DNA of 64,000 bases from Anaerobutyricum hallii (GCF_900209925.1 NZ_LT907978.1:863219-927218); one strand, 5' to 3'; shown: positions 12,199 through 63,432, counted from the stretch's first letter. Numbers and translations: made by a program. Notes: generated by a model not told the origin, from the letters alone.

Positions 12199-13122
12199 TT
12201 ATTGTGGAAGTTCTTGTGTAGAACCTGTCATTAAAAAGTTTTTACAAAGATATCCCTCGCGCACACCGTAGCGGGATACCCATATCTTCTCACAGTGAAG
12301 TCTTTCTATAATTTCTTTTACAACAAGCATACCGGGGATGATCGTATGGACACGATCTGGGCATAGTTTTAAAATATAATTACGGGAAGCAGCATCACGT
12401 TTTAATAGTATTTTTAAAATTTTATTGAATTCATCTTTTGTAATGATTCGATTATTTTCCTCTTTGTTAAAATGGTAATTGACAATATTTAAGATGGCAC
12501 GACATGTACCGCCGACACAACAGACTTTTTCTGGTACTTTTTTTGGAAAATCAACAGCATCGAGTCGTTTTGAAATACGTTTTGCAATCGCTTTTTGTTC
12601 TTTTTTATCTGGCCATAAACCGGAAACGTGATTGTGGAAAAGATTTAAAGAACCGATAGAAATACTTTGGGATTTTTTTACTTTTCCATTTTTTACACGA
12701 ACGAATTCAGTACTTCCACCACCAATATCAAACATAATACCGTTCTTTAAATCGGTTGTGTACAGGGCACCATAGTAGCCTAAGATACCTTCTTCGCTGC
12801 CGGCAATGACATCGACACAAAGACCAGTTCTGCGCTTGATTGTTTCAAGTGCTTTTTCTGTATTCTTGATATTACGTAAAGAAGCGGTGGCAAACACATG
12901 CATTTCGTTCACACCAAGCTGCTGTAAAAGGACTTTGAAATCAAGCAGTACGGCACATGCCTGATTGATACCATCATTAGACATAATTCCATGGGAGACA
13001 TATCCGGCAAGACCGGCCATATATTTTTTTGAGAATAAGGTTTCAAAGCTTCCGTTTTCTAATGTATTGTAAAGAGAAAGACGGATTGTATTGGAACCTA
13101 AATCGACAATAGCACATTTCAT
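12199..13122 (-). CDS. Ppx/GppA-family phosphatase (exopolyphosphatase / guanosine pentaphosphate phosphohydrolase)
   Basis: N-terminal AIVDLGSNTIRL and DIGGGSTEF actin-like ATPase motifs. RBS AGGAGG. Confidence 0.8.
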   Translation of the reverse strand: MKCAIVDLGSNTIRLSLYNTLENGSFETLFSKKYMAGLAGYVSHGIMSNDGINQACAVLLDFKVLLQQLGVNEMHVFATASLRNIKNTEKALETIKRRTGLCVDVIAGSEEGILGYYGALYTTDLKNGIMFDIGGGSTEFVRVKNGKVKKSQSISIGSLNLFHNHVSGLWPDKKEQKAIAKRISKRLDAVDFPKKVPEKVCCVGGTCRAILNIVNYHFNKEENNRIITKDEFNKILKILLKRDAASRNYILKLCPDRVHTIIPGMLVVKEIIERLHCEKIWVSRYGVREGYLCKNFLMTGSTQELPQ

Positions 13123-13292
13123 AAATATTAACCTCCTGATAAAATCGCTATAGTTTATAATAACAAGTATTGGTAAGAAAGGAAAGAAATATAAGTCAAA
13201 TTTATGTAAAAAAGAATATGAAAAATAATATTGAAATAAAAAAAGTATTGTGATAAAATAAATGTAATATTTTTACAATAAAGGAGTTAGCT

Positions 13293-13469
13293 ATGACAAG
13301 TCAATGTGATTTATGTGCATATTACTGGATTGATGAAGAAGATGGGACAGGAGAATGCCAGGTGAATCTGGATGAGGATGATCTGGCGAGAATGTTGTCT
13401 GGTTCTGCAGATAGTTGTCCGTATTTTCAGATGTATGATGAGTATAAGATTGTGCGGAAACAGATCTAG
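13293..13469 (+). CDS. small Cys-rich protein (58 aa, CxxC...C...CP), not in the ORF track because it is under 60 aa
   Basis: RBS AAAGGAG 7 nt upstream of the ATG at 13293. Product MTSQCDLCAYYW...ECQ...CPYFQ. Clean ORF ending in TAG at 13467-13469. Confidence 0.55.
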   Translation: MTSQCDLCAYYWIDEEDGTGECQVNLDEDDLARMLSGSADSCPYFQMYDEYKIVRKQI

Positions 13470-13553
13470 AAGATAAGATGTAGAATAGAAGATATAATCA
13501 GGGATTAAATCCGGGGGTAATGGAAGTCGGTTAACAATCAGCTTATCCAAGTA

Positions 13554-13733
13554 TTAGATAAACTGATTTCGCTCTTTATTATATTCAAAGCCTGCAGAAG
13601 ATAGTTTTTCTTTAAGAGTATTCTCATCAATATTCATATCTTCGCACAAAGCCTCTAATGAAGAGTAGAAGTCGCGCAGCTTTGTGTTAATGACGCTGTA
13701 AAGCATAATCGGATCTTTGGGTAATCGTTCCAT
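13554..13733 (-). CDS. DUF4250-like small protein (59 aa), not in the ORF track
   Basis: Translation of the minus strand gives MERLPKDPIMLYSVINTKLRDFYSSLEALCEDMNIDENTLKEKLSSAGFEYNKERNQFI, which has the DUF4250 pattern. Confidence 0.55.
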   Translation of the reverse strand: MERLPKDPIMLYSVINTKLRDFYSSLEALCEDMNIDENTLKEKLSSAGFEYNKERNQFI

Positions 13734-14121
13734 AGTAGTATCCTTTCTTGGAAATTAATCGTAAATATGCCGAGGCATTATTGAATATCTAATAACATAA
13801 GTTTTATCGAAATATTCTCGGAGATAAATGAACGCAAAAAAAGAGATGTCTACACATAAATATATAAAATAAATATTTAAGAACCAGTATAGTAGTGACA
13901 TCTCTTTAAAATTAGAATAATATGTCTAATTTATGTTTAAATTATATATGAAATTTTAGAAAAAAGCAAGAGAAAATTGAAAGAAAATTCTTAGATTAAT
14001 ATACTATATAGAGATTAGTTATGGAAAGTGGAAAAATAATGGAAAAAAACGTTGATTTTCTGGACTTCATTTTTAATTTGTAGTATTCTAATAAATAGAA
14101 ATTTTATTGGAGGTAATATTT

Positions 14122-14598
14122 ATGAATAAAGTATGGAAATTCCATAATGACGTGGATACCGACCAGATCATTGCATCACAGTATCTACTTTTACCAGATA
14201 TTGAAGCAATGAAACAATATACATTTGAATCCTTAGATCCTGATTTTTCAAAAAAAGCGCAGCCGGGTGATTTGATCGTTGCCGGAGAGAATTTTGGCTG
14301 TGGTTCATCGAGAGAACAGGCACCGAGTGTTTTAAAAGCTCTTGGAATTAAAGCGGTAATTGCCAAGTCATTTGCCAGAATCTTTTATCGTAATTCAATC
14401 AATATCGGACTCCCGGTTATTGTATGTAAGGAATTATACGATTATGTAGAAGACGGTGGAGAGGCAGAGCTTGATCTTTCTGCAGGTACAGTCACGGTTA
14501 ACGGACAGGTATTTTCCTGTACAAAGCTTCCGGAATATATGCAGAATATTTTGAATGCCGGAGGATTGATTGCATCTTTAAATAAGGAGGAAGCGTAG
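14122..14598 (+). CDS. aconitase-family dehydratase small subunit (LeuD-like), pair 1
   Basis: GCGSSREQAP motif. RBS GGAGGT before the ATG at 14122. About 158 aa. Confidence 0.8.
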   Translation: MNKVWKFHNDVDTDQIIASQYLLLPDIEAMKQYTFESLDPDFSKKAQPGDLIVAGENFGCGSSREQAPSVLKALGIKAVIAKSFARIFYRNSINIGLPVIVCKELYDYVEDGGEAELDLSAGTVTVNGQVFSCTKLPEYMQNILNAGGLIASLNKEEA

Positions 14599-14601
14599 AT
14601 T

Positions 14602-15855
14602 ATGGGAATGACTTTAGGAGAAAAGATTATCGCTCGTGCTGCTGGTGTTGATTTTGTAAAACCGAATGATATCCATACAGTAACACTTGATCGTATGATG
14701 AGTAATGATGGTACAACACATCTTACGGTGGATATGTATCATAATCAATTAAAACATCCTCAAATTGCAGATAAAGATAAAGTAGTATTTATCATGGATC
14801 ACAATGTTCCAGCTGAGAACCCGAAGACAGCAGAGGCACATAAAAAGATGCGTGATTTTGCAATAGAGAATGATATTAAGTTATATGAAGGACAGGGAGT
14901 CTGTCACCAGATTATGATGGAAGATTATGTCTGCCCTGGAGAGTTGATTTTTGGCGCAGATTCACATACCACTTCTTACGGAGCATTAGGAGCGTTTGGT
15001 ACAGGGGTTGGATGTACAGATTTTTTATATGCGATGACAACAGGAACATCCTGGGTTATGGTTCCTGAAACAATCCGTTTTAATCTGCATGGAGAATTAA
15101 AAGAAGGGGTTTACCCAAGAGATTTAATTCTTACGATTATTGGAGATATCGGAGCGAATGGAGCGAATTATAAGATTATGGAGTTTGCGGGAGATGGAGC
15201 GCACAAGCTTTCTGTTGATGACCGTATGGTTCTTTGTAATCTCACTGTAGAGGCTGGTGCAAAGGCTGGTATTGTTGAGCCGGATGAAAAGGTTGTAGAA
15301 TATTGTAAAGCGCATGGTCGTGAGGCAGTACATATGTTTAAAAGTGATGAGGATGCACATTTTTGTGAAGTGTATGATTATGACTTGAGTAAGATTGAAC
15401 CAGTTGTTGTACGCCCGGATTTTGTAGATAATTTTGCCCTGCTTAAAGATGTAAAAGAAGAGCGGATCGCTATTGACGAAGCTTTCTTAGGTTCTTGTAA
15501 TAATGGACGTATTGATGACCTTCGGGTAGCTGCTGAGATTGTCAGAGGAAAACAGGTTGATCCTAAGGTTCGATTCATCGTTGCACCGGCTTCAAAAGCT
15601 GTTTACATTCAGGCGTTAGAAGAGGGAATTATCACTACTTTAATGGAAGCAGGAGCGATGGTTATGAATTGTAACTGTTCCGTATGCTGGGGAAGCTGTC
15701 AGGGTGTAATCGGTGAGAATGAAGTACTGATTTCCACAGGAACGAGAAACTTTAAAGGTCGTGCAGGTGCGCCAAGTTCCAAAGTATATCTGGCAAGTGC
15801 TGCAACAGTAGCAGCTTCTGCTCTTGCAGGATACATTACGGAACCGGAAGCGTAA
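14602..15855 (+). CDS. aconitase-family dehydratase large subunit (LeuC-like, short archaeal type), pair 1
   Basis: GADSHT and GSCNNGR motifs and an unusual Cys cluster NCNCSVCWGSC. 417 aa. Confidence 0.8.
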   Translation: MGMTLGEKIIARAAGVDFVKPNDIHTVTLDRMMSNDGTTHLTVDMYHNQLKHPQIADKDKVVFIMDHNVPAENPKTAEAHKKMRDFAIENDIKLYEGQGVCHQIMMEDYVCPGELIFGADSHTTSYGALGAFGTGVGCTDFLYAMTTGTSWVMVPETIRFNLHGELKEGVYPRDLILTIIGDIGANGANYKIMEFAGDGAHKLSVDDRMVLCNLTVEAGAKAGIVEPDEKVVEYCKAHGREAVHMFKSDEDAHFCEVYDYDLSKIEPVVVRPDFVDNFALLKDVKEERIAIDEAFLGSCNNGRIDDLRVAAEIVRGKQVDPKVRFIVAPASKAVYIQALEEGIITTLMEAGAMVMNCNCSVCWGSCQGVIGENEVLISTGTRNFKGRAGAPSSKVYLASAATVAASALAGYITEPEA

Positions 15856-15887
15856 AGCATTTTATCATAGAAAGAGGTAAGTATATC

Positions 15888-16379
15888 ATGGAACAGTTTA
15901 CTGGAAAAGTATGGATACTCGGTGATGATATTGATACAGATATTATTATTCCGACAGAGTATCTGGCACTTCCTACCGTTGAAGATATGAAGCAGTATGG
16001 ATTTTCTCCGTTAAGACCGGAACTTGCAGGGCAGATTCAGGAAGGAGATATCATTGTTGCCGGAAAGAATTTTGGCTGTGGCTCCTCCAGAGAACAGGCA
16101 CCGGAAATTATTAAGGCATTGAAAGTCAAGTGTGTCATTGCAAAGTCTTACGCCCGTATTTTCTTTAGAAACTCTATTAATAACGGACTTTTGCTTATTG
16201 AGAACAGTGATATTCAGGATGTGATTAAAGAAGGCGATACCCTGACAGTGCATATGGGTGAATCTTTAGAATTTGATGGAAAGACATATCCGATTCATCC
16301 ACTGCCAGATAACCTGATGGACATTATTAATGCAGGTGGTCTTGTAAAAGCGATGCAGAAACGTAACGGAATTATTTAG
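15888..16379 (+). CDS. aconitase-family dehydratase small subunit (LeuD-like), pair 2
   Basis: GCGSSREQAP motif; 163 aa. Confidence 0.8.
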   Translation: MEQFTGKVWILGDDIDTDIIIPTEYLALPTVEDMKQYGFSPLRPELAGQIQEGDIIVAGKNFGCGSSREQAPEIIKALKVKCVIAKSYARIFFRNSINNGLLLIENSDIQDVIKEGDTLTVHMGESLEFDGKTYPIHPLPDNLMDIINAGGLVKAMQKRNGII

Positions 16380-16388
16380 GAGGCAGTC

Positions 16389-17627
16389 ATGGGAAGTACA
16401 TTAATTGAGAAAATTATCGAAAAAAATACTGGCCTTTCTAAAGTAACTCCTGGCCAGATTGTTACAGTAAATGTTGACAGAGTAATGATTCATGATATTT
16501 TCATTCCTTTTGTTGCAGAAAAGTTCGAAGAAATGGGATTTACAAAGCTCTGGGATCCGGATAAAGTGGTATTGATCTACGATCATCTTGTTCCGACAAG
16601 TGCAGTAGAAGATGTTCGCCATTTTAAGATTGGAGATGCTTTTGCGGATAAATACGGCTTAACACACGTACACAGACGTGACGGTATCTGTCATCAGCTT
16701 ATGACAGAAGCGGGTTATGCAAAGCCGGGTAATATTGTTTTTGGTACAGATTCCCATACAACAACGTATGGATGTGTCGGCTGTTTTTCTTCTGGTATCG
16801 GTTACACAGAGATGGCTTCGATACTTGGTACAGGAGAAATGTGGATTCGTGTTCCAGAAACAATCAAAGTAGTTATTAATGGAACATTACCGGCAAATGT
16901 AACAGCGAAAGATGTTATTTTACGTTTAATTGGAGATTTGCGTGCTGATGGGGCGACATACAAAGCACTTGAGATTACAGGTTCAGCAGTAGATGCCATG
17001 TCTGTTGCTTCTAGAATGACGATTTCTAATATGGCGATTGAAGCAGGAGCAAAGTGCTGCCTGTTCCGTCCAGATGAGAAAACCTGTGAGTATTCAGAAG
17101 TAAAGATGGAAGATGTCGATTGGTTATATGGTGATGAAGATGCTGCGTATTGCCGGACGATCACGTATCAGGCGGAAGAACTCGTACCGGTGTGTGCCTG
17201 CCCTTCACAGGTAGATAATATCCATCCTGTGAGCGAACTTGTCGGAACAGATATCGATCAGGTATTCATCGGTTCCTGTACAAACGGACGATTAGAAGAT
17301 TTAGCAGTAGCAGCAAAAATCCTTGAAGGAAAGACGGTAGCATGTCGTACCATCATAACTCCGGCAAGCCGTAAGATTTACATTGAGGCAATAAAAGCAG
17401 GTTATATGGAAACCTTAGCAAAAGCAGGAGCAATTATTACTCAACCAGGCTGTGGATTATGCTGTGGACGTGCAGGAGGAATCCTTTGTGACGGAGAAAA
17501 AGTACTTGCAACAAATAATCGAAATTTCCTGGGACGTATGGGAACATCTAAAGTAGGAATTTATCTAGGCTCCCCTGCAACTGCGGCAACATCTGCAGTT
17601 TATGGAAAGATTACATTACCAAAGTAA
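16389..17627 (+). CDS. aconitase-family dehydratase large subunit (LeuC-like), pair 2
   Basis: GTDSHT, GSCTNGR and GCGLCCG motifs; 412 aa. Confidence 0.8.
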   Translation: MGSTLIEKIIEKNTGLSKVTPGQIVTVNVDRVMIHDIFIPFVAEKFEEMGFTKLWDPDKVVLIYDHLVPTSAVEDVRHFKIGDAFADKYGLTHVHRRDGICHQLMTEAGYAKPGNIVFGTDSHTTTYGCVGCFSSGIGYTEMASILGTGEMWIRVPETIKVVINGTLPANVTAKDVILRLIGDLRADGATYKALEITGSAVDAMSVASRMTISNMAIEAGAKCCLFRPDEKTCEYSEVKMEDVDWLYGDEDAAYCRTITYQAEELVPVCACPSQVDNIHPVSELVGTDIDQVFIGSCTNGRLEDLAVAAKILEGKTVACRTIITPASRKIYIEAIKAGYMETLAKAGAIITQPGCGLCCGRAGGILCDGEKVLATNNRNFLGRMGTSKVGIYLGSPATAATSAVYGKITLPK

Positions 17628-17643
17628 TTAAAAGATAAAAAAT

Positions 17644-17682
17644 AGCCCCCTGATAACTAACGTATATAGTTGTCAGGGGGCT
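17644..17682. terminator. stem-loop after dehydratase pair 2 (AGCCCCCTGATAACTA / TAGTTGTCAGGGGGCT)
   Basis: 16-bp near-perfect inverted repeat. The T-tract lies on the minus-strand side. Confidence 0.45.
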
Positions 17683-17860
17683 GTGACGTTAGAATAATAC
17701 ATACATATTAAAAATAGTGGAAATTGTATAAATATATATACATAAGAGCGGCTGTATAGTATAATGAAAGAAACACATTGAGGATGCAAAATGTACTCTT
17801 AGAAAAGACTCTGATTAGAAAAGACTCTGAGACTACATCAAAGAGGAAGGGAGAAGGTCT

Positions 17861-36265: not shown

Positions 36266-36340
36266 CGGGGTGTGGCTCAGCTTGGCTAGAGCGCTTGATT
36301 TGGGATCAAGAGGCCGCAGGTTCGAATCCTGTCACCCCGA
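36266..36340 (+). tRNA. tRNA-Pro(TGG)
   Basis: Cloverleaf with a C1:G72 pair, anticodon loop TTTGGGA, and T-loop TTCGAAT. No encoded CCA. Confidence 0.85.
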
Positions 36341-36345
36341 TATCT

Positions 36346-36416
36346 GCGGGTGTAGTTCAATGGTAGAACACTAGCCTTCCAAGCTAGATACGTGGGTTCG
36401 ATTCCCATCACCCGCT
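36346..36416 (+). tRNA. tRNA-Gly(TCC)
   Basis: Acceptor GCGGGTG/CACCCGC. Anticodon loop CTTCCAA. Confidence 0.85.
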
Positions 36417-36465
36417 TCTGCGAGAGCAGTATTTACAGTTATATAATGTAACTACTATTTTATGC

Positions 36466-36539
<74 letters not shown>

Positions 36540-36561
36540 TTTGTCAGGTTGTCCTGGCTAT

Positions 36562-36636
36562 GGTGGGTGTGGCGCAGTTGGTTAGCGCGCCAGATTGTGG
36601 CTCTGGAGGCCGAGGGTTCGAATCCCTCTACCCACC
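36562..36636 (+). tRNA. tRNA-His(GTG) with encoded G-1
   Basis: An extra 5' G pairs with C73. Anticodon loop TTGTGGC. Confidence 0.85.
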
Positions 36637-36642
36637 TTATAA

Positions 36643-36714
36643 TGGGCTATCGCCAAGCGGTAAGGCACAGGACTTTGACTCCTGCATTCGCTGGTTCGAA
36701 TCCAGCTAGTCCAG
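36643..36714 (+). tRNA. tRNA-Gln(TTG)
   Basis: Anticodon loop CTTTGAC. T-loop TTCGAAT. Confidence 0.8.
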
Positions 36715-36756
36715 TTGGACCAGTGATTCGATATGCTGGCTCAGTAATATTTATAT

Positions 36757-36829
36757 GGGATATTAGCTCAGTTGGTAGAGCACTTGACTTTTAATCAAGT
36801 TGTCCGGGGTTCGAATCCCCGATGTCTCA
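36757..36829 (+). tRNA. tRNA-Lys(TTT)
   Basis: TAGCTCAGTTGGTAGAGC D-arm. Anticodon loop CTTTTAA. Confidence 0.8.
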
Positions 36830-36880
36830 TTTGAGAATCGTCTTATAGATGATTTTTGATTTAAAACATTATAGTTATAC

Positions 36881-36955
36881 CGGGGTGTGGCTCAGCTTGG
36901 CTAGAGCGCTTGATTTGGGATCAAGAGGCCGCAGGTTCGAATCCTGTCACCCCGA
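36881..36955 (+). tRNA. tRNA-Pro(TGG), second identical copy
   Basis: Identical in sequence to 36266-36340. Confidence 0.85.
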
Positions 36956-36960
36956 TATCT

Positions 36961-37031
36961 GCGGGTGTAGTTCAATGGTAGAACACTAGCCTTCCAAGCT
37001 AGATACGTGGGTTCGATTCCCATCACCCGCT
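36961..37031 (+). tRNA. tRNA-Gly(TCC), second identical copy
   Basis: Identical in sequence to 36346-36416. Confidence 0.85.
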
Positions 37032-37075
37032 TTCTTTTTTCGCCTACGAAAAAAGATAATTGAATTACAGGATAT

Positions 37076-37155
37076 GCGGATATGGCGGAACTGGCAGACG
37101 CGCTAGACTTAGGATCTAGTTCTTCGGAGTGCAGGTTCGATTCCTGTTATCCGCA
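37076..37155 (+). tRNA. tRNA-Leu(TAG)
   Basis: Anticodon loop CTTAGGA. Extended variable arm TTCTTCGGAGT. T-loop TTCGATT. Confidence 0.75.
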
Positions 37156-59781: not shown

Positions 59782-61182
59782 ATGGAAATGGATAACCGCT
59801 CAGTTCGGCTGAACAAAAAATCAAATTTATTGAAATTAGATGAATATATGTACCCGCTGGTTGATACGGATAAGCCTAATGTATTCCGTAATCTGTTCCC
59901 GTATGAGGAAGTGCCGAAAATAGCCTTTAATGACCGAATCGTACCTCATGAAATGCCGGAAGATATCTGGATTACGGATACAACTTTCCGCGATGGACAG
60001 CAGTCAAGAACGCCGTATTCAACAGATCAGATCGTGCATATATATGATGCATTCCACCGCTTAGGAGGACCGAAAGGAATTATTCGTCAGTGCGAATTTT
60101 TCTTATATAGTAAAAAAGATAGAGATGCGGTATATAAATGTATGGAAAAGGGTTATAAATTTCCTGAAATTACAAGCTGGATTCGTGCAAGTAAGAAAGA
60201 CTTTGAATTAGTAAAAGAAATTGGTTTAAAAGAAACCGGAATTCTTGTAAGCTGTTCTGATTACCATATTTTCTATAAAATGAAAATGACAAGAAAACAG
60301 GCGATGGAACATTATTTAGGCGTTGTAAGAGAATGTCTTGAAACCGGAATCAGTCCAAGATGCCACCTGGAAGATATTACCCGTTCTGATATTTATGGAT
60401 TTGTTATTCCATTTTGTCTGGAGCTTATGAAATTAAAAGATGAGTATGGTATTCCTGTAAAAATTCGTGCCTGCGATACGATGGGATATGGAGTAAACTT
60501 CCCAGGAGCTGTGATTCCACGTTCTGTGCCGGGAATTATTTATGGATTAAAAGAACATGCCGGAGTACCATCAGAATTACTAGAATGGCATGGTCATAAT
60601 GATTTCTATAAAGCAGTGAATAATTCTACAACAGCATGGCTTTATGGAGCATCTGCTGTAAACAGTGCATTATTTGGAATCGGTGAACGTACAGGAAACA
60701 CCCCGCTTGAGGCAATGGTATTTGAATATGCCCAGCTTCGTGGAACATTAGACGGAATGGATACTACAGTTATTACAGAACTGGCAGAGTATTATGAGAA
60801 AGAGATTGGATATCACATTCCAGAAAGAACACCGTTTGTAGGAAAGAACTTTAATGTGACAAGAGCCGGAATCCATGCAGATGGTCTTCTTAAAAATGAA
60901 GAAATCTATAACATATTTGATACAGATAAATTGTTAAACCGTCCGGTGCTTGTAGCGGTATCAAATACAAGCGGACTTGCTGGAATTGCCCATTGGATAA
61001 ATACTTACTATCGCTTAAAGGGAGATAAGGCAGTAGACAAGAAGAGTCCACTGGTAGCCGAGGTAAAGAAGTGGGTTGATCAGGAATATGAAACAGGTCG
61101 AGTAACTGCAATTACAGATGGCGAATTAGAAAAAGTAATTAAAGAAAGCAGCAAAAAATTAAATGTTAACCTAATCCCATAA
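59782..61182 (+). CDS. HMGL-like (DRE-TIM) acyl-CoA:2-oxoacid condensing enzyme, homocitrate / Re-citrate / isopropylmalate synthase family
   Basis: TDTTFRDGQQS and WHGHNDF metal and substrate motifs of the pyruvate carboxyltransferase fold. RBS GGAGA before the ATG at 59782. Confidence 0.6.
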   Translation: MEMDNRSVRLNKKSNLLKLDEYMYPLVDTDKPNVFRNLFPYEEVPKIAFNDRIVPHEMPEDIWITDTTFRDGQQSRTPYSTDQIVHIYDAFHRLGGPKGIIRQCEFFLYSKKDRDAVYKCMEKGYKFPEITSWIRASKKDFELVKEIGLKETGILVSCSDYHIFYKMKMTRKQAMEHYLGVVRECLETGISPRCHLEDITRSDIYGFVIPFCLELMKLKDEYGIPVKIRACDTMGYGVNFPGAVIPRSVPGIIYGLKEHAGVPSELLEWHGHNDFYKAVNNSTTAWLYGASAVNSALFGIGERTGNTPLEAMVFEYAQLRGTLDGMDTTVITELAEYYEKEIGYHIPERTPFVGKNFNVTRAGIHADGLLKNEEIYNIFDTDKLLNRPVLVAVSNTSGLAGIAHWINTYYRLKGDKAVDKKSPLVAEVKKWVDQEYETGRVTAITDGELEKVIKESSKKLNVNLIP

Positions 61183-61317: not shown

Positions 61318-63246
61318 TTATTCTGATAATTCTTCCCATTTGTCATAGAGTTCTAGTAAGGTAGATTCATTTTCTTCAAATTTAGTATTGAGTTCCATAA
61401 GTTTTGATACATTGGTAGCATTTTCAGGTAATGCCATTTCATTTTTTAACTGATCATTTTCTGCTTCTAAGCGACTGATTTCTTTTTCTGTCTTCTTTAA
61501 ATCGTTGGCACGCTTACGCTGTTTTGCGGCCTCTTCACGCGAACGTTTCCAGTCCTCCTTGGCTTTTTCTGGAGAAGGGGCAGGAGATTTATCAGCGGAG
61601 GCAGCAAGTGTGATGTTATCGCTGTCAGCAGATACGTTTCCAGCTTCTTTTTGTTCTAAGTAATAGTTGTAGTTGCCTTTATAGTTTACGATGCCTTCTG
61701 GGGATAAGTCCAGGATTCTTGTGGCTGTTTGATTAATGAAGTAACGGTCATGGGAAACGTAAAATACAGTTCCCTCATAGTTGTTAATCGCTTCTTCTAA
61801 AATTTCTCTGGACTGGATGTCTAAATGGTTGGTCGGCTCATCAAGAATGATGAAGTTCGCATTGGAAAGCATGAGTTTAGCGAGAGAAACTCGTCCTTTT
61901 TCGCCACCACTCAAAGTGCCGATGACCTGAAATACATCTTCGCCGGTAAAAAGAAAGGCAGCAAGAACATTTCGGATGCGGGTATTAGTCAGCTTTGGAT
62001 AGGCATCAGAAATTTCATCAAAAATTGTTTTGGAATCGTCTAATACATGTTGTTCCTGATCATAATAACCGATGGACACCTTAGAGCCGTAGCGGATTTT
62101 TCCAGAGTCAGCACGAAGCTGGCGGTTAATGATTTTTAAAAGAGTGGTTTTTCCGGTACCGTTGGCACCGAGGAGTCCAACAACTTCCCCACGTTTAATC
62201 TGAACATTTAAATTACGGAATAAAGCCTTATCACCAAAAGATTTGGAAAGTCCTTCAATAGTAAGAACATCGTTTCCACTAAGTACTTCCGGTTCTAAAG
62301 TGATACGCATCTTACTGTTTAAAGTCACAGGTTTATCGACAAGTTCAATCTTACTAAGCATTTTCTCCCGGCTTTCGGCACGTTTGATGGACTTTTCACG
62401 ATTGAAAGAGCGAAGCTTTGTGATTACCTCCTCCTGATGGTGGATTTCTTGTTGCTGATTCATATAAAGTTTCATCTGGGCATCACGCTGTGCTTTTTTC
62501 TTTTCGGCGTAAGCACTGTAGTTGCCGTTAAATACCTGACTGTTTCCACGCTCGATCTCGATTACTTTATCAACAACTTTATCAAGAAAATAGCGGTCAT
62601 GGGAAACAATAAGCACCGCACCCCGGTAGTTAGAAAGGAAAGTTTCTAACCAGCGAATGGATTCCATATCAAGGTGGTTAGTCGGCTCATCAAGTAAAAT
62701 GAGATCCGGGTGCATCAGAAGAATACGGCTGAGTGCTACGCGGGTCTTCTGTCCTCCGGAAAGTGTATGGATTGGTGTGTCAAACTGGCTTTCATCAAAA
62801 CCAAGACCTTTTAATACACCGATAATTTCGCTTTTCCAGGCATAACCATTTGCCTTCTCAAAGCGGTCAGTGAAACGGGAATAACTTTCCATTGCGCTTT
62901 CTAGTGCTTCACCGGACAAAGTGCTGATATCTTTTTCTAACTGACGTATTTTCTTTTCTAGTTCGATGATATCTTTTTTGGCATCAAGCATTTCTTCATA
63001 AATGCTGCGATGAGAACTTACGTCAATGATCTGAGATAAGTAGCCATAAGTAGATCCTTTCTGAAAGATAACCTCCCCATGATCTGCCTCATATTCTCCG
63101 GTGATAATTTTGAAAAGAGTGGTTTTACCGGCGCCGTTGATACCGATTACAGCAGCCTTTTCCCCTTCATTAATTAAAAAATTAACATTATTTAATACGG
63201 ATTTGCCTCCGAATGCTTTTTCGATTTTCTGACAGGCTAAAATCAT
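61318..63246 (-). CDS. ABC-F family ATPase (two ABC domains, no transmembrane domain; Uup/EttA-like) with a C-terminal coiled coil
   Basis: Two Walker A motifs (GINGAGKTT and GANGTGKTT), two LSGGQ/LSGGE signatures, and an acidic/basic coiled-coil tail. RBS GGAGG before the ATG at 63246. Confidence 0.85.
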   Translation of the reverse strand: MILACQKIEKAFGGKSVLNNVNFLINEGEKAAVIGINGAGKTTLFKIITGEYEADHGEVIFQKGSTYGYLSQIIDVSSHRSIYEEMLDAKKDIIELEKKIRQLEKDISTLSGEALESAMESYSRFTDRFEKANGYAWKSEIIGVLKGLGFDESQFDTPIHTLSGGQKTRVALSRILLMHPDLILLDEPTNHLDMESIRWLETFLSNYRGAVLIVSHDRYFLDKVVDKVIEIERGNSQVFNGNYSAYAEKKKAQRDAQMKLYMNQQQEIHHQEEVITKLRSFNREKSIKRAESREKMLSKIELVDKPVTLNSKMRITLEPEVLSGNDVLTIEGLSKSFGDKALFRNLNVQIKRGEVVGLLGANGTGKTTLLKIINRQLRADSGKIRYGSKVSIGYYDQEQHVLDDSKTIFDEISDAYPKLTNTRIRNVLAAFLFTGEDVFQVIGTLSGGEKGRVSLAKLMLSNANFIILDEPTNHLDIQSREILEEAINNYEGTVFYVSHDRYFINQTATRILDLSPEGIVNYKGNYNYYLEQKEAGNVSADSDNITLAASADKSPAPSPEKAKEDWKRSREEAAKQRKRANDLKKTEKEISRLEAENDQLKNEMALPENATNVSKLMELNTKFEENESTLLELYDKWEELSE

Positions 63247-63432
63247 AATAACCTCCAAATGATTATATTATTATATAGTAGAAATATTTCTGATGTATTT
63301 TATCATGAAAGAAAAAATAAGTAAATAAGTGTTGGAATTTTTAACAATCCTATTTGACATTAAAACTATTTTTGTATATAATTGATTAAGTAGAGCTTGA
63401 GAATGGGAATTTTTTATCAAAGGGAGGATCTT

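What the first reader, a model, noticed from the sequence alone, without database searches (positions are those of the whole stretch)
14122..17627. Two tandem aconitase-family dehydratase subunit pairs in small-then-large order, not linked to leuA/leuB
Four consecutive genes (D1 14122-14598, C1 14602-15855, D2 15888-16379, C2 16389-17627) encode two paralogous LeuD-like and LeuC-like subunit pairs of the short type (about 160 and 415 aa). In both pairs the small subunit precedes the large one, the reverse of canonical leuC-leuD order. No isopropylmalate synthase or dehydrogenase gene is adjacent. Pair 1 carries an unusual Fe-S Cys cluster, NCNCSVCWGSC, where pair 2 has GCGLCCG. One pair may be isopropylmalate or citramalate isomerase. 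The other may serve a different substrate, such as homoaconitate or dimethylmalate, or a new one. An HMGL-family synthase lies 42 kb away at 59782-61182.
Basis: partly seen in the sequence, partly recalled or inferred. Interest (0 to 1): 0.6.

Follow-up and report, generated by a model that had tools for sequence, protein, structure and literature searches.

The report
Paired isopropylmalate-type isomerase operon in Lachnospiraceae
The four genes are a real operon, conserved in order across hundreds of gut Lachnospiraceae species, that encodes two different LeuCD-like iron-sulfur isomerases, most likely one for leucine synthesis and one for the citramalate route to isoleucine; this is an uncharacterised variant of a known enzyme type, not a new kind of system.

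Summary
D1 (14122-14598), C1 (14602-15855), D2 (15888-16379) and C2 (16389-17627) are two small-then-large pairs of short-type aconitase-family subunits in Anaerobutyricum hallii.

- **Family placement.** None of the four reaches NCBI's LeuC/LeuD, HacA/HacB or aconitase equivalog cut-offs. The paralogs are old: C1/C2 share 39% identity, and both are about equally distant from canonical clostridial LeuC.
- **Conservation.** The order D1-C1-D2-C2 holds in 76 of 76 complete loci, drawn from the best 80 of at least 571 matching stretches in the species-representative genome collection. Natural fusions fix the pairing as D1+C1 and D2+C2.
- **Pathway links.** The lack of leuA/leuB linkage is only local. 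In two assemblies of an Anaerovoracaceae-like lineage the cassette follows leuA-leuB where relatives carry canonical leuC-leuD. In another lineage it follows a bona fide citramalate synthase. In seven or eight Lachnospiraceae it lies beside ilvN and/or ilvC.
- **Substrate loops.** Both small subunits have apolar substrate-recognition loops (YLLLP, YLAL[KP]) with no arginine.
- **Best reading.** Two 2-alkylmalate isomerases, one for isopropylmalate and one for citramalate. Which pair takes which substrate is unresolved.
The first Cys of "NCNC" is not conserved. The distant HMGL gene looks like Re-citrate synthase, not a partner.
- **Verdict.** New variant of a known kind, of moderate interest.

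The parts
13977..14005 (+). Promoter-like site (TTGAAA, 17-nt spacer, TATACT) about 115 nt upstream of D1
   Evidence: Consensus scan, 10 of 12 matches. The count of such sites in the region is no higher than in shuffled sequence, so this is only a candidate. No riboswitch or T-box is found upstream.
14122..14598 (+). D1: small subunit (158 aa) of pair 1. Carries the GSSRE motif and the substrate-recognition loop YLLLP.
   Evidence: PF00694 77.8 bits. TIGR02087 188 bits against a cut-off of 109, but TIGR02084 LeuD 170 against 246 and HacB 171 against 230. The loop is YLLLP in 77 of 79 orthologs. Best PDB match is M. jannaschii IPMI small subunit 3vba, 171 bits.
14602..15855 (+). C1: large subunit (417 aa) of pair 1. 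Cys ligands are C299, C359 and C362. Clade signatures are S-N-D-G-T-T-H, G-T-R-N-F-K-G-R and N-C-S-V-C-W-G-[SG]-C.
   Evidence: PF00330 314.8 bits. NF001614 508 bits against 385, but LeuC TIGR02083 453 against 611, HacA 408 against 550 and PRK07229 aconitase 321 against 612. Invariant columns are listed. TGTRNFKGR is present in 81 of 81 orthologs, where C2 and canonical LeuC have NRNF. Only one full-length 50%-cluster representative lies above 50% identity in 1.84 billion.
15888..16379 (+). D2: small subunit (163 aa) of pair 2. Carries the GSSRE motif and the substrate-recognition loop YLALP.
   Evidence: PF00694 69.1 bits. TIGR02087 172 bits, TIGR02084 151 against 246. The loop is YLAL[KP] or YLAM[KP] in all 75 orthologs. 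47% identical to D1.
16389..17627 (+). C2: large subunit (412 aa) of pair 2. Motifs are I-H-D-I-F-I-P-F, G-C-G-L-C-C-G-R and N-N-R-N-F-L-G-R.
   Evidence: PF00330 309.5 bits. NF001614 530 bits, TIGR02083 426 against 611, HacA 424 against 550. Best PDB match is M. jannaschii IPMI large subunit 4kp1, 402 bits, against HacA 328. 39% identical to C1.
17642..17684 (+). 18-bp hairpin 15 nt after the C2 stop codon; probable 3' end of the operon (no T tract)
   Evidence: RNA fold -31.5 kcal/mol, z = -7.8 against shuffled sequence. Sequence. Not listed by the terminator scan because it lacks a T run.

Best explanation
The four genes form one operon that makes two separate heterodimeric [4Fe-4S] hydro-lyases of the isopropylmalate-isomerase/homoaconitase "short" type, D1+C1 and D2+C2. 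Each enzyme would isomerise a 2-alkylmalate to the 3-alkylmalate through the alkylmaleate intermediate, by the aconitase mechanism. In that mechanism the large subunit holds the cluster on three Cys. The small subunit supplies the GSSRE serine base and a five-residue loop that reads the alkyl side chain.

Together the two enzymes do the LeuCD-type steps of branched-chain amino-acid synthesis in Lachnospiraceae:
- 2-isopropylmalate to 3-isopropylmalate, for leucine;
- (R)-citramalate to 3-methylmalate, for the pyruvate route to isoleucine.

Shown here:
- family membership;
- intact catalytic motifs;
- the pairing D1+C1 and D2+C2;
- strict co-inheritance of the four genes;
- physical linkage to leuA-leuB, cimA and ilvN/ilvC in other genomes.

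Inferred:
- the two substrates;
- that the cassette is the only LeuCD in A. hallii.

Not resolved: which pair takes which substrate. A weak lean is D1C1 for citramalate and D2C2 for isopropylmalate. This rests on cimA lying next to D1 in L179, the bulkier Leu-Leu loop of D1, and C2 being closer to M. jannaschii LeuC.
For: 1. Family and intact active sites. Pfam and NCBIfam subfamily hits are strong. The DSHT, CHQ, GSC(N/T)NGR, CxxC, RNFxGR and GSSRE motifs are conserved in both pairs.

2. Co-inheritance. D1, C1, D2 and C2 lie in that order on one strand in 76 of 76 complete loci. The other 7 of 83 loci are cut by contig ends. These loci are the best 80 of at least 571 C1-type stretches matched in the one-genome-per-species collection. 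Median identities to the window proteins are 73-79% for all four, so both pairs are under similar constraint.

3. Pairing. Natural single-polypeptide fusions exist. D1-C1 fusions arise by stop-codon loss or an 18-nt deletion in Anaerobutyricum variants. In L181 adjacent fused D1C1 (589 aa) and D2C2 (594 aa) genes are found.

4. Leucine link. L063 and L091 carry ilvD-ilvC-ilvN-ilvB, then leuA-leuB-D1-C1-D2-C2. LeuA scores 800 bits against a cut-off of 455 and LeuB 515 against 353. Their close relatives (LeuB 77-87% identical) carry leuA-leuC-leuD-leuB with equivalog-level LeuC and LeuD. The cassette therefore stands where canonical leuCD is missing.

5. Isoleucine link. In L179 and L180 the gene 86 nt upstream of D1 is a citramalate synthase, TIGR00977 700 bits against a cut-off of 450.

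6. ilvN and/or ilvC lie just upstream in 7-8 Lachnospiraceae loci.

7. Both recognition loops are apolar and lack Arg. Published work places substrate choice in this loop (PMC7308503, read, citing Yasutake 2004, Jeyakanthan 2010 and Lee 2012).

8. Both pairs match M. jannaschii isopropylmalate/citramalate isomerase better than its homoaconitase.

9. Being in one operon argues for two simultaneous functions, not condition-specific isozymes (inference).
Against: - No enzyme assay or genetics exists. I found no paper on this cassette.
- One LeuCD normally handles both isopropylmalate and citramalate, for example the M. jannaschii enzyme named in PDB as isopropylmalate/citramalate isomerase. Two enzymes are therefore not required by the chemistry.
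- I could not inspect the rest of the A. hallii genome. I do not know whether a canonical leuCD, cimA, ilvA, leuA or leuB is present there.
- The leuA-leuB and cimA linkages come from four assemblies (two lineages) outside typical Lachnospiraceae. In most Lachnospiraceae loci the neighbours vary.
- The cues for which pair takes which substrate conflict. D1 is closer to M. jannaschii LeuD, while C2 is closer to M. jannaschii LeuC. C1 carries a HacA-like D-G-T-T motif.
- No T-box, riboswitch or convincing CodY site ties the operon to a branched-chain amino-acid regulon.
Confidence: 0.55

Rival explanations
1. Both pairs serve the same isomerisation. Either they split the two half-reactions (one dehydrates the 2-alkylmalate, the other hydrates the alkylmaleate, as yeast aconitase plus homoaconitase do for homocitrate), or they form one hetero-oligomeric enzyme.
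For: - The four genes are never found apart.
- They were kept together after transfer into the leuA-leuB operon of L063 and L091, where one LeuCD would have been enough to replace the lost genes.
- C1 has an altered cluster environment: Thr in place of the Asn that C2 and canonical LeuC have before RNF, and the C-S-V-C-W-G-S-C motif. This could mean a restricted catalytic repertoire.
- A precedent for split half-reactions exists in fungal and Thermus lysine synthesis (my own knowledge, not checked here).
Against: - In L181 each pair is fused into its own polypeptide. This fits two self-contained enzymes.
- All catalytic residues are present in both pairs.
- The two recognition loops differ consistently, YLLLP against YLAL[KP]. 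This is more easily explained by two substrates.
- The separate links to cimA and to leuA/leuB fit two substrates.
Confidence: 0.13
2. One pair is the aconitase that links the HMGL-type (Re-)citrate synthase to NADP isocitrate dehydrogenase for 2-oxoglutarate and glutamate synthesis. The other pair is the isopropylmalate isomerase.
For: - The window's HMGL protein looks like Re-citrate synthase. Its orthologs form an HMGL-GntR-ICDH operon with no aconitase gene in it.
- C1 shares the D-[GA]-T-T motif with the tricarboxylate enzyme HacA.
Against: - Both small subunits have apolar loops without the Arg that binds the extra carboxylate in HacB and in aconitase (Arg580, from my own knowledge).
- In L179 a third small-then-large pair with an Arg-bearing loop (FLQRS) follows the cassette. 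It is a better candidate for a tricarboxylate substrate.
- Scores on aconitase models are far below cut-off, and lower than those of canonical LeuC.
- The cassette is never within 10 kb of the HMGL gene or an ICDH gene.
- Another Lachnospiraceae has a 763-aa YbhJ-type hydratase 2.6 kb from its Re-citrate synthase.
- In C. thermocellum a standard aconitase gene neighbours Re-citrate synthase (PMC6115520).
Confidence: 0.1
3. One pair acts on a different or new 2-substituted malate unrelated to leucine or isoleucine: 2,3-dimethylmalate, homoaconitate, maleate/D-malate, or longer or aromatic 2-alkylmalates made by recursive 2-oxoacid elongation.
For: - Neither pair belongs to any curated equivalog.
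- C1 is a compact, isolated clade with unusual conserved residues.
- The nearest outgroup of C1 at 45% identity (P0445) sits in a catabolic cluster with TctAB and PrpD-like genes. This shows that the wider family has diverse substrates.
Against: - The only pathway genes ever found next to the cassette are branched-chain amino-acid genes: leuA, leuB, cimA, ilvN, ilvC.
- There are no nicotinate-fermentation, transporter or catabolic neighbours.
- About 75% identity across genera and near-universal presence suggest a housekeeping role.
- There is no Arg in the loops for homoaconitate.
Confidence: 0.15
4. The two pairs are redundant isozymes with the same substrate range. One is a stress-tolerant, oxygen-tolerant or iron-sparing back-up, as with AcnA/AcnB or FumA/FumC.
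For: C1's cluster-binding region differs from all others examined here (Thr for Asn before RNF, Trp and an extra Cys after the second ligand).
Against: - Back-up isozymes are normally regulated separately. Here both pairs are in one operon in every genome, with short intergenic gaps (medians of about 9, 87 and 21 nt).
- The recognition loops differ consistently.
- Both pairs are equally conserved.
Confidence: 0.05

Closest known systems
Methanocaldococcus jannaschii isopropylmalate/citramalate isomerase (MJ0499/MJ1277; PDB 4kp1, 4nqy, 3vba)
   Same: Short-type heterodimer of about 420 and 160 aa. It is the best solved-structure match for all four proteins: C1 375 bits, C2 402, D1 171, D2 132. 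It has an apolar recognition loop (YLVYT) and acts on both isopropylmalate and citramalate.
   Different: Identity is only about 45%. One archaeal enzyme does both jobs, whereas here there are two enzymes. The recognition loops differ (YLLLP and YLAL[KP]). C1 has N-D-G-T-T-H, T-R-N-F and C-S-V-C-W-G-S-C in place of H-D-I-T-G-P, N-R-N-F and C-S-A-C-M-G.
Canonical clostridial LeuC/LeuD (NCBIfam TIGR02083/TIGR02084), as in the leuA-leuC-leuD-leuB operons of Anaerotignum and Anaerovoracaceae
   Same: Same superfamily, same subunit sizes and the same pathway context. The cassette occupies the leu operon in L063 and L091, where these genes are missing.
   Different: Identity is about 41-42% and scores fall well below the equivalog cut-offs. 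The gene order is reversed (small then large). There are two pairs, not one. The canonical recognition loop is [HY]LNT[AST], against YLLLP and YLAL[KP] here.
The two-pair arrangement of methanogens: IPMI (LeuCD) plus homoaconitase (HacAB)
   Same: Two paralogous short-type pairs in one genome, with specificity set by the small-subunit loop.
   Different: HacB has the YLRT loop, whose Arg binds a carboxylate. Neither D1 nor D2 has an Arg. HacA/HacB cut-offs are not reached. From my own knowledge, the methanogen genes are not organised as one invariant four-gene operon.
Aconitase B (AcnB) domain order
   Same: The swivel domain (equivalent to the small subunit) precedes the three cluster-binding domains. 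That is also the order in this cassette and in the natural D1C1 and D2C2 fusions. The AcnB domain order is from my own knowledge.
   Different: There is no HEAT-like N-terminal domain. Sequence similarity is weak: 180 and 160 bits against a cut-off of 782. The substrate loops are apolar.
Arabidopsis IPMI, with one large subunit and three small subunits
   Same: Paralogous small subunits with different recognition regions divide leucine synthesis from another 2-oxoacid elongation pathway (PMC7308503).
   Different: In the plant only the small subunit is duplicated. Here both subunits are duplicated, and fusions show that the pairs do not mix.

Membership tests
Aconitase superfamily (Pfam PF00330 + PF00694) | Aconitase catalytic domain in the large subunit and the swivel (Aconitase_C) domain in the small subunit, both above Pfam gathering scores | tested here: met
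   C1 314.8 and C2 309.5 bits (cut-off 28.7). D1 77.8 and D2 69.1 bits (cut-off 22.8).
Aconitase superfamily (Pfam PF00330 + PF00694) | Three Cys ligands for the [4Fe-4S] cluster (GSC..., then C-x-x-C), plus the GSSRE serine/arginine motif in the small subunit | tested here: met
   C299, C359 and C362 are invariant across C1 orthologs and C2. GCGSSREQAP is present in D1 and D2. Actual cluster binding is not testable here.
Bona fide LeuC/LeuD (NCBIfam equivalogs TIGR02083 / TIGR02084) | Whole-protein score at or above the curated equivalog cut-off | tested here: not met
   C1 452.7 and C2 425.7 against 610.65. D1 170.2 and D2 151.0 against 245.85. Positive control: canonical LeuC scores 738.3 and LeuD 271.9.
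Bona fide LeuC/LeuD (NCBIfam equivalogs TIGR02083 / TIGR02084) | Clustering with other leucine-synthesis genes (leuA, leuB) | tested here: inconclusive
   Not met in the window or in 82 of the 83 non-redundant cassette loci analysed (one window-species locus, two other Lachnospiraceae loci and the 80 genome-scan loci). Met in L063, and in the metagenome contig L091, where leuA-leuB-D1-C1-D2-C2 replaces leuA-leuC-leuD-leuB.
Bona fide LeuC/LeuD (NCBIfam equivalogs TIGR02083 / TIGR02084) | Isopropylmalate isomerase activity | not testable with these tools
   Needs an anaerobic enzyme assay or leuCD complementation.
Methanogen-type homoaconitase HacA/HacB | Score above the equivalog cut-offs, and an Arg in the small-subunit recognition loop (YLRT) | tested here: not met
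   HacA_Meth 408 and 424 against 550. HacB models 171 or less against 230. The loops are YLLLP and YLAL[KP], against YLRTT in 2pkp.
Aconitate hydratase (PRK07229 / TIGR01342 / AcnA / AcnB) | Score above the equivalog cut-off; a basic residue for the extra carboxylate; linkage to citrate synthase or isocitrate dehydrogenase | tested here: not met
   PRK07229 321 and 316 against 612, lower than canonical LeuC at 342. No Arg in the loops. No HMGL or ICDH gene within 10 kb of any cassette. Activity itself was not tested.
2,3-Dimethylmalate dehydratase DmdA/DmdB (Eubacterium barkeri nicotinate fermentation) | Location in a nicotinate-fermentation gene cluster | tested here: not met
   In the window the neighbours are Ppx/GppA, two small DUF genes, DUF4177 and acetate kinase. 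Across 83 loci the recurring neighbours are LysR, ilvN, ilvC and YbaK.
2,3-Dimethylmalate dehydratase DmdA/DmdB (Eubacterium barkeri nicotinate fermentation) | Close sequence relationship to DmdA/DmdB | not tested
   No DmdA or DmdB reference sequence was available in the tools. Both D subunits hit TIGR02087, the "LeuD/DmdB family", only at subfamily level.
Aconitase X (AcnX; PF04412) | Pfam gathering score | tested here: not met
   C1 scores 19.1 bits against a cut-off of 31.5. No hit for C2.

The most novel reading that the evidence does not exclude
At least one of the two pairs is not simply a LeuCD but an enzyme with a specificity or role not yet described for this family. Three versions remain open:
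- a dedicated citramalate/citraconate isomerase, distinct from isopropylmalate isomerase, which would be the first such split in bacteria;
- the two pairs dividing the dehydration and hydration half-reactions;
- C1D1, with its HacA-like D-G-T-T-H motif and altered cluster pocket, being a heterodimeric aconitase that completes the Re-citrate synthase to isocitrate dehydrogenase route in gut Lachnospiraceae.

The probability given is for the two more radical versions only (split half-reactions, or aconitase or another non-branched-chain substrate).
Probability: 0.25. Interest if true: 0.65.

Novelty: new variant of a known kind. Interest (0 to 1): 0.45.

Why it matters
Lachnospiraceae such as Anaerobutyricum, Anaerostipes, Blautia, Coprococcus and Fusicatenibacter are major human-gut butyrate producers. 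[quoted passage not shown]

In these bacteria the LeuCD step appears to be carried by a four-gene module that automated annotation labels as two copies of "3-isopropylmalate dehydratase". Metabolic reconstructions therefore either double-count LeuCD or leave the second pair's reaction unassigned.

If the two pairs are specialised for isopropylmalate and citramalate, this would be a clear natural case of subfunctionalisation of an enzyme that is bifunctional elsewhere. The short recognition loops (YLLLP against YLAL[KP]) could then be tested directly and reused to engineer 2-oxoacid elongation pathways.

The displacement of canonical leuCD by the cassette in an Anaerovoracaceae-like lineage (L063, L091), and the repeated small-then-large fusions, also bear on how the AcnB-type domain order can arise.

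Tried and rejected
- **Regulatory RNA.** Rfam at gathering thresholds found only tRNAs in the window. Nothing lies upstream of the cassette in seven other loci. There is thus no T-box whose specifier codon could have named the amino acid.
- **CodY box.** The only site upstream of D1 has three mismatches. The window total (22) is reached by 3 of 100 shuffles. Not usable.
- **Divergent LysR regulator** (13 loci). It gives only generic LysR hits, far below every equivalog cut-off, including CcpC, GltC and IlvY. Uninformative.
- **Aconitase idea.** I pursued it through the HMGL gene. Its orthologs do sit with a GntR regulator and an NADP-ICDH gene. But a YbhJ-type hydratase lies near it in another species. 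The apolar loops, and the Arg-bearing third pair in L179, make the cassette a poor aconitase candidate. Kept only as a minor rival.
- **Literature.** Five full-text searches found nothing on this cassette or on two-subunit aconitases, and an Anaerobutyricum plus isopropylmalate search also found nothing. A sixth led only to Ashniev et al. 2022, whose per-genome branched-chain sheet is not in the stored supplement. The Soto-Martin et al. 2020 supplements do not list these enzymes. Li et al. 2007 on Re-citrate synthase is not held.
- **Regex error.** My first pattern for HMGL/LeuA motifs was too strict. I redid the test with a corrected pattern and BLAST; the conclusion did not change.
- **Structure prediction and fold search.** Not run. 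Family and fold are not in doubt, and the tools return no coordinates with which to inspect the substrate pocket.
- **Rest of the genome.** I could not see the rest of the A. hallii genome (CP182330.1). The presence or absence of canonical leuCD, cimA, ilvA, leuA, leuB, icd and an aconitase there remains unknown.

Full report
**What is there.** Four co-directional ORFs occupy 14122-17627: D1 (158 aa), C1 (417 aa), D2 (163 aa) and C2 (412 aa). D1's true start is ATG 14122, which lies 8 nt after a GGAGG and matches public gene calls. The flanks are an AT-rich region with one promoter-like site at 13977-14005 and, 15 nt after the C2 stop, an 18-bp hairpin at 17642-17684 (-31.5 kcal/mol, z = -7.8). 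The neighbouring genes are unrelated: Ppx/GppA, two small DUF genes, DUF4177 and acetate kinase on the opposite strand. The four genes therefore look like an operon of their own. Exact protein matches identify the organism as Anaerobutyricum hallii (WP_096239398, WP_096239399, WP_096239400).

**Family.**
- D1 and D2 are Aconitase_C proteins, and C1 and C2 are Aconitase-domain proteins.
- In NCBIfam all four pass only subfamily models: TIGR02087 for the small subunits, and NF001614, TIGR01343 and TIGR02086 for the large ones.
- All four fall well short of the equivalog cut-offs for LeuC (453 and 426 against 611), LeuD (170 and 151 against 246), methanogen HacA/HacB, and aconitases.
- These cut-offs do discriminate. 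Canonical LeuC and LeuD from clostridial leu operons recovered here score 738 and 272.
- The catalytic and cluster motifs are intact in both pairs.
- C1 and C2 are 39% identical, and D1 and D2 47%.
- In a distance tree C1, C2, canonical LeuC, M. jannaschii LeuC and M. jannaschii HacA are five deep lineages, each 40-50% identical to the others. The pairs are ancient paralogs, not a recent duplication.

**The cassette is an invariant unit.**
The best 80 are almost all Lachnospiraceae, including Anaerostipes, Blautia, Fusicatenibacter, Coprococcus comes, Lacrimispora and Hungatella.
- Of the 83 non-redundant loci analysed, 76 are complete, and all 76 have D1, C1, D2 and C2 in that order on one strand. 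The other seven are cut by contig ends.
- All four proteins are similarly conserved, with median identity of 73-79% to the window proteins.
- The flanks differ from genus to genus.
- In a search of 1.84 billion 50%-identity cluster representatives, only one full-length representative is more than 50% identical to C1. The next full-length ones are at 45% or less. C1 is therefore a compact clade.
- The C1 clade's signatures are S/T-N-D-[GA]-T-T-H, G-T-R-N-F (C2 and canonical LeuC have N-R-N-F) and N-C-S-V-C-W-G-[SGA]-C.

**Which subunit works with which.**
- In the window, D1's stop and C1's start are in frame, one codon apart.
- Metagenomic Anaerobutyricum variants carry TAG-to-CAG, TAG-to-AAG or an 18-nt in-frame deletion at this junction. 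Each gives a 571-577-aa D1-C1 fusion.
- In another genome (L181) both pairs are fused, as adjacent D1C1 (589 aa) and D2C2 (594 aa) genes.
- These fusions fix the pairing as D1+C1 and D2+C2. They argue for two self-contained enzymes with the small-subunit domain in front, as in AcnB.

**What pathway.** In the window nothing nearby suggests a pathway. Other genomes do.
1. In L063 (a MAG labelled Aminipila sp.) and in metagenome contig L091 the order is ilvD-ilvC-ilvN-ilvB, then leuA-leuB-D1-C1-D2-C2. LeuA and LeuB are bona fide there.
   - The 78 other loci found with L063's LeuB (77-87% identical) come from Anaerotignum and Anaerovoracaceae. Those long enough to show the flanks have the same supercluster but with leuA-leuC-leuD-leuB and equivalog-level LeuCD.
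   - In L063 and L091 the canonical leuCD is therefore absent from the operon, and the cassette sits after leuB.
   - L063's C1 and C2 nest among the Lachnospiraceae sequences. This suggests that the whole cassette was transferred.
   - This is the strongest evidence that the cassette supplies isopropylmalate isomerase.
2. In L179 and L180, which carry the most distant C1-type protein (54% identical), the gene 86 nt upstream of D1 is a citramalate synthase. It scores 700 bits on TIGR00977 against a cut-off of 450.
   - The D1 and D2 loops (YLLLP, YMALK) and the C1 signatures are kept there.
3. ilvN and/or ilvC lie just upstream of the cassette in 7-8 Lachnospiraceae loci.

No other pathway genes recur next to the cassette.

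**Specificity cues.** Published work places substrate choice in a five-residue loop of the small subunit (PMC7308503).

| Small subunit | Recognition loop |
|---|---|
| D1 | YLLLP (77 of 79 orthologs) |
| D2 | YLAL[KP] or YLAM[KP] (all 75 orthologs) |
| Canonical clostridial LeuD | [HY]LNT[AST] (mostly) |
| M. jannaschii LeuD | YLVYT |
| M. jannaschii HacB | YLRTT |

Both cassette loops are apolar and lack Arg. That argues against homoaconitate and citrate and for alkyl side chains such as methyl (citramalate) and isopropyl. In L179 a third small-then-large pair follows the cassette, and its loop (FLQRS) does contain Arg. This shows what a tricarboxylate-type relative looks like in the same array.

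Which pair takes which substrate is not settled:
- cimA is adjacent to D1, D1's loop is bulkier, and C2 is closer to M. jannaschii LeuC (402 against 375 bits). These point to D1C1 for citramalate.
- D1 is closer to M. jannaschii LeuD (171 against 132 bits), and C1's D-G-T-T motif resembles HacA. These point the other way or nowhere.

**The HMGL gene.** The protein at 59782-61182 scores 141 bits or less on every LeuA, CimA or NifV model (cut-offs above 410). It has only the HMGL-like domain. Orthologs (82-100% identical) in other Lachnospiraceae sit in an HMGL-GntR-ICDH operon. The ICDH there scores 681 bits on NF006156 against a cut-off of 335. The operon is followed by the same ABC-F gene as in the window. 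Re-citrate synthase is known to be related to homocitrate and isopropylmalate synthases (Li et al. 2007, as cited in PMC6115520). The gene is therefore most likely Re-citrate synthase, not a partner of the cassette. This raised the question of whether one pair is the missing aconitase. The apolar loops, the low aconitase-model scores, the lack of any linkage, and a YbhJ-type hydratase next to Re-citrate synthase in another Lachnospiraceae make that a minor rival.

**Conclusion.**
These are two distinct, non-canonical LeuCD-like enzymes, and isopropylmalate and citramalate are the best candidate substrates.
- The "orphan" status is only local. Homoaconitate and dimethylmalate are not supported. 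The "unusual Cys" is only partly real. The HMGL gene belongs to another pathway.
- I rate the two-substrate model for leucine and isoleucine at about 0.55.
- The broader claim that the cassette does LeuCD-type steps of branched-chain amino-acid synthesis is more secure, at about 0.75.
- No experimental work on this cassette was found.
- It is a new variant of a known kind: widespread, consistently organised and uncharacterised, and easy to test.

Noticed in passing
window 14596-14604; proteins P0002, P0005, P0007, P0008, P0009: D1's TAG stop and C1's ATG are in frame, one codon apart. Metagenomic Anaerobutyricum variants have TAG changed to CAG (Q) or AAG (K), or an 18-nt in-frame deletion. 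These are three different events that fuse D1 and C1 into one 571-577-aa protein with AcnB-like domain order.
   Followed up: partly
window 59782-61182; L171-L176: The HMGL-family gene is probably Re-citrate synthase. Orthologs form an HMGL-GntR-NADP isocitrate dehydrogenase operon upstream of the same ABC-F gene. In the window the GntR and ICDH genes are missing at that spot: HMGL ends at 61182 and ABC-F occupies 61318-63258 on the minus strand.
   Followed up: partly
L177:5059-7350 and L178: A 763-aa YbhJ-type "hydratase" of the aconitase family (NF008503, 1350 bits) lies 2.6 kb upstream of the Re-citrate synthase gene in another Lachnospiraceae. It is a candidate for the aconitase of these bacteria.
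   Followed up: no
L179:7260-9253 (also L180): A third small-then-large pair (D3 170 aa, C3 446 aa) directly follows cimA-D1-C1-D2-C2. D3's recognition loop is FLQRS, which contains an Arg. Uma2 and 23S-rRNA-IVP genes are inserted between D1 and C1 and between D2 and C2 without breaking the order.
   Followed up: partly
L063:6364-13033 and L091: In an Anaerovoracaceae-like lineage (L063, L091) the canonical leuC-leuD genes between leuA and leuB are gone, and the Lachnospiraceae-type cassette follows leuB. This looks like displacement by horizontal transfer.
   Followed up: yes
L181:7988-11785: In one genome (GC 52%) both pairs are fused into adjacent 589-aa and 594-aa genes. AzlC/AzlD (branched-chain amino-acid exporter family) genes lie 3.5 kb downstream.
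   Followed up: partly
window 12199-14121 compared with L001, L003-L005 (1-9500): The left flank of the cassette varies between strains. The window, L002 and L006 have Ppx/GppA, DUF6472 and DUF4250. Other contigs with an identical C1 have three hybrid histidine kinases, a solute-binding protein and a Crp/Fnr-type regulator directly upstream of D1.
   Followed up: no
L026:3484-5324: In one MAG a methyltransferase gene and a GNAT acetyltransferase gene are inserted between D2 and C2.
   Followed up: no
window 36266-37155: An array of nine tRNA genes. Two pairs have identical Rfam scores (36266/36881 and 36346/36961), which suggests a tandem duplication of part of the array.
   Followed up: no
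L182 (protein P0445): One of the two nearest full-length outgroups of C1 (45% identical) sits, in large-then-small order, in a cluster with TctA/TctB tricarboxylate transporter, PrpD-like, Asp/Glu-racemase-like and RidA genes. It is a catabolic relative of unknown substrate.
   Followed up: no
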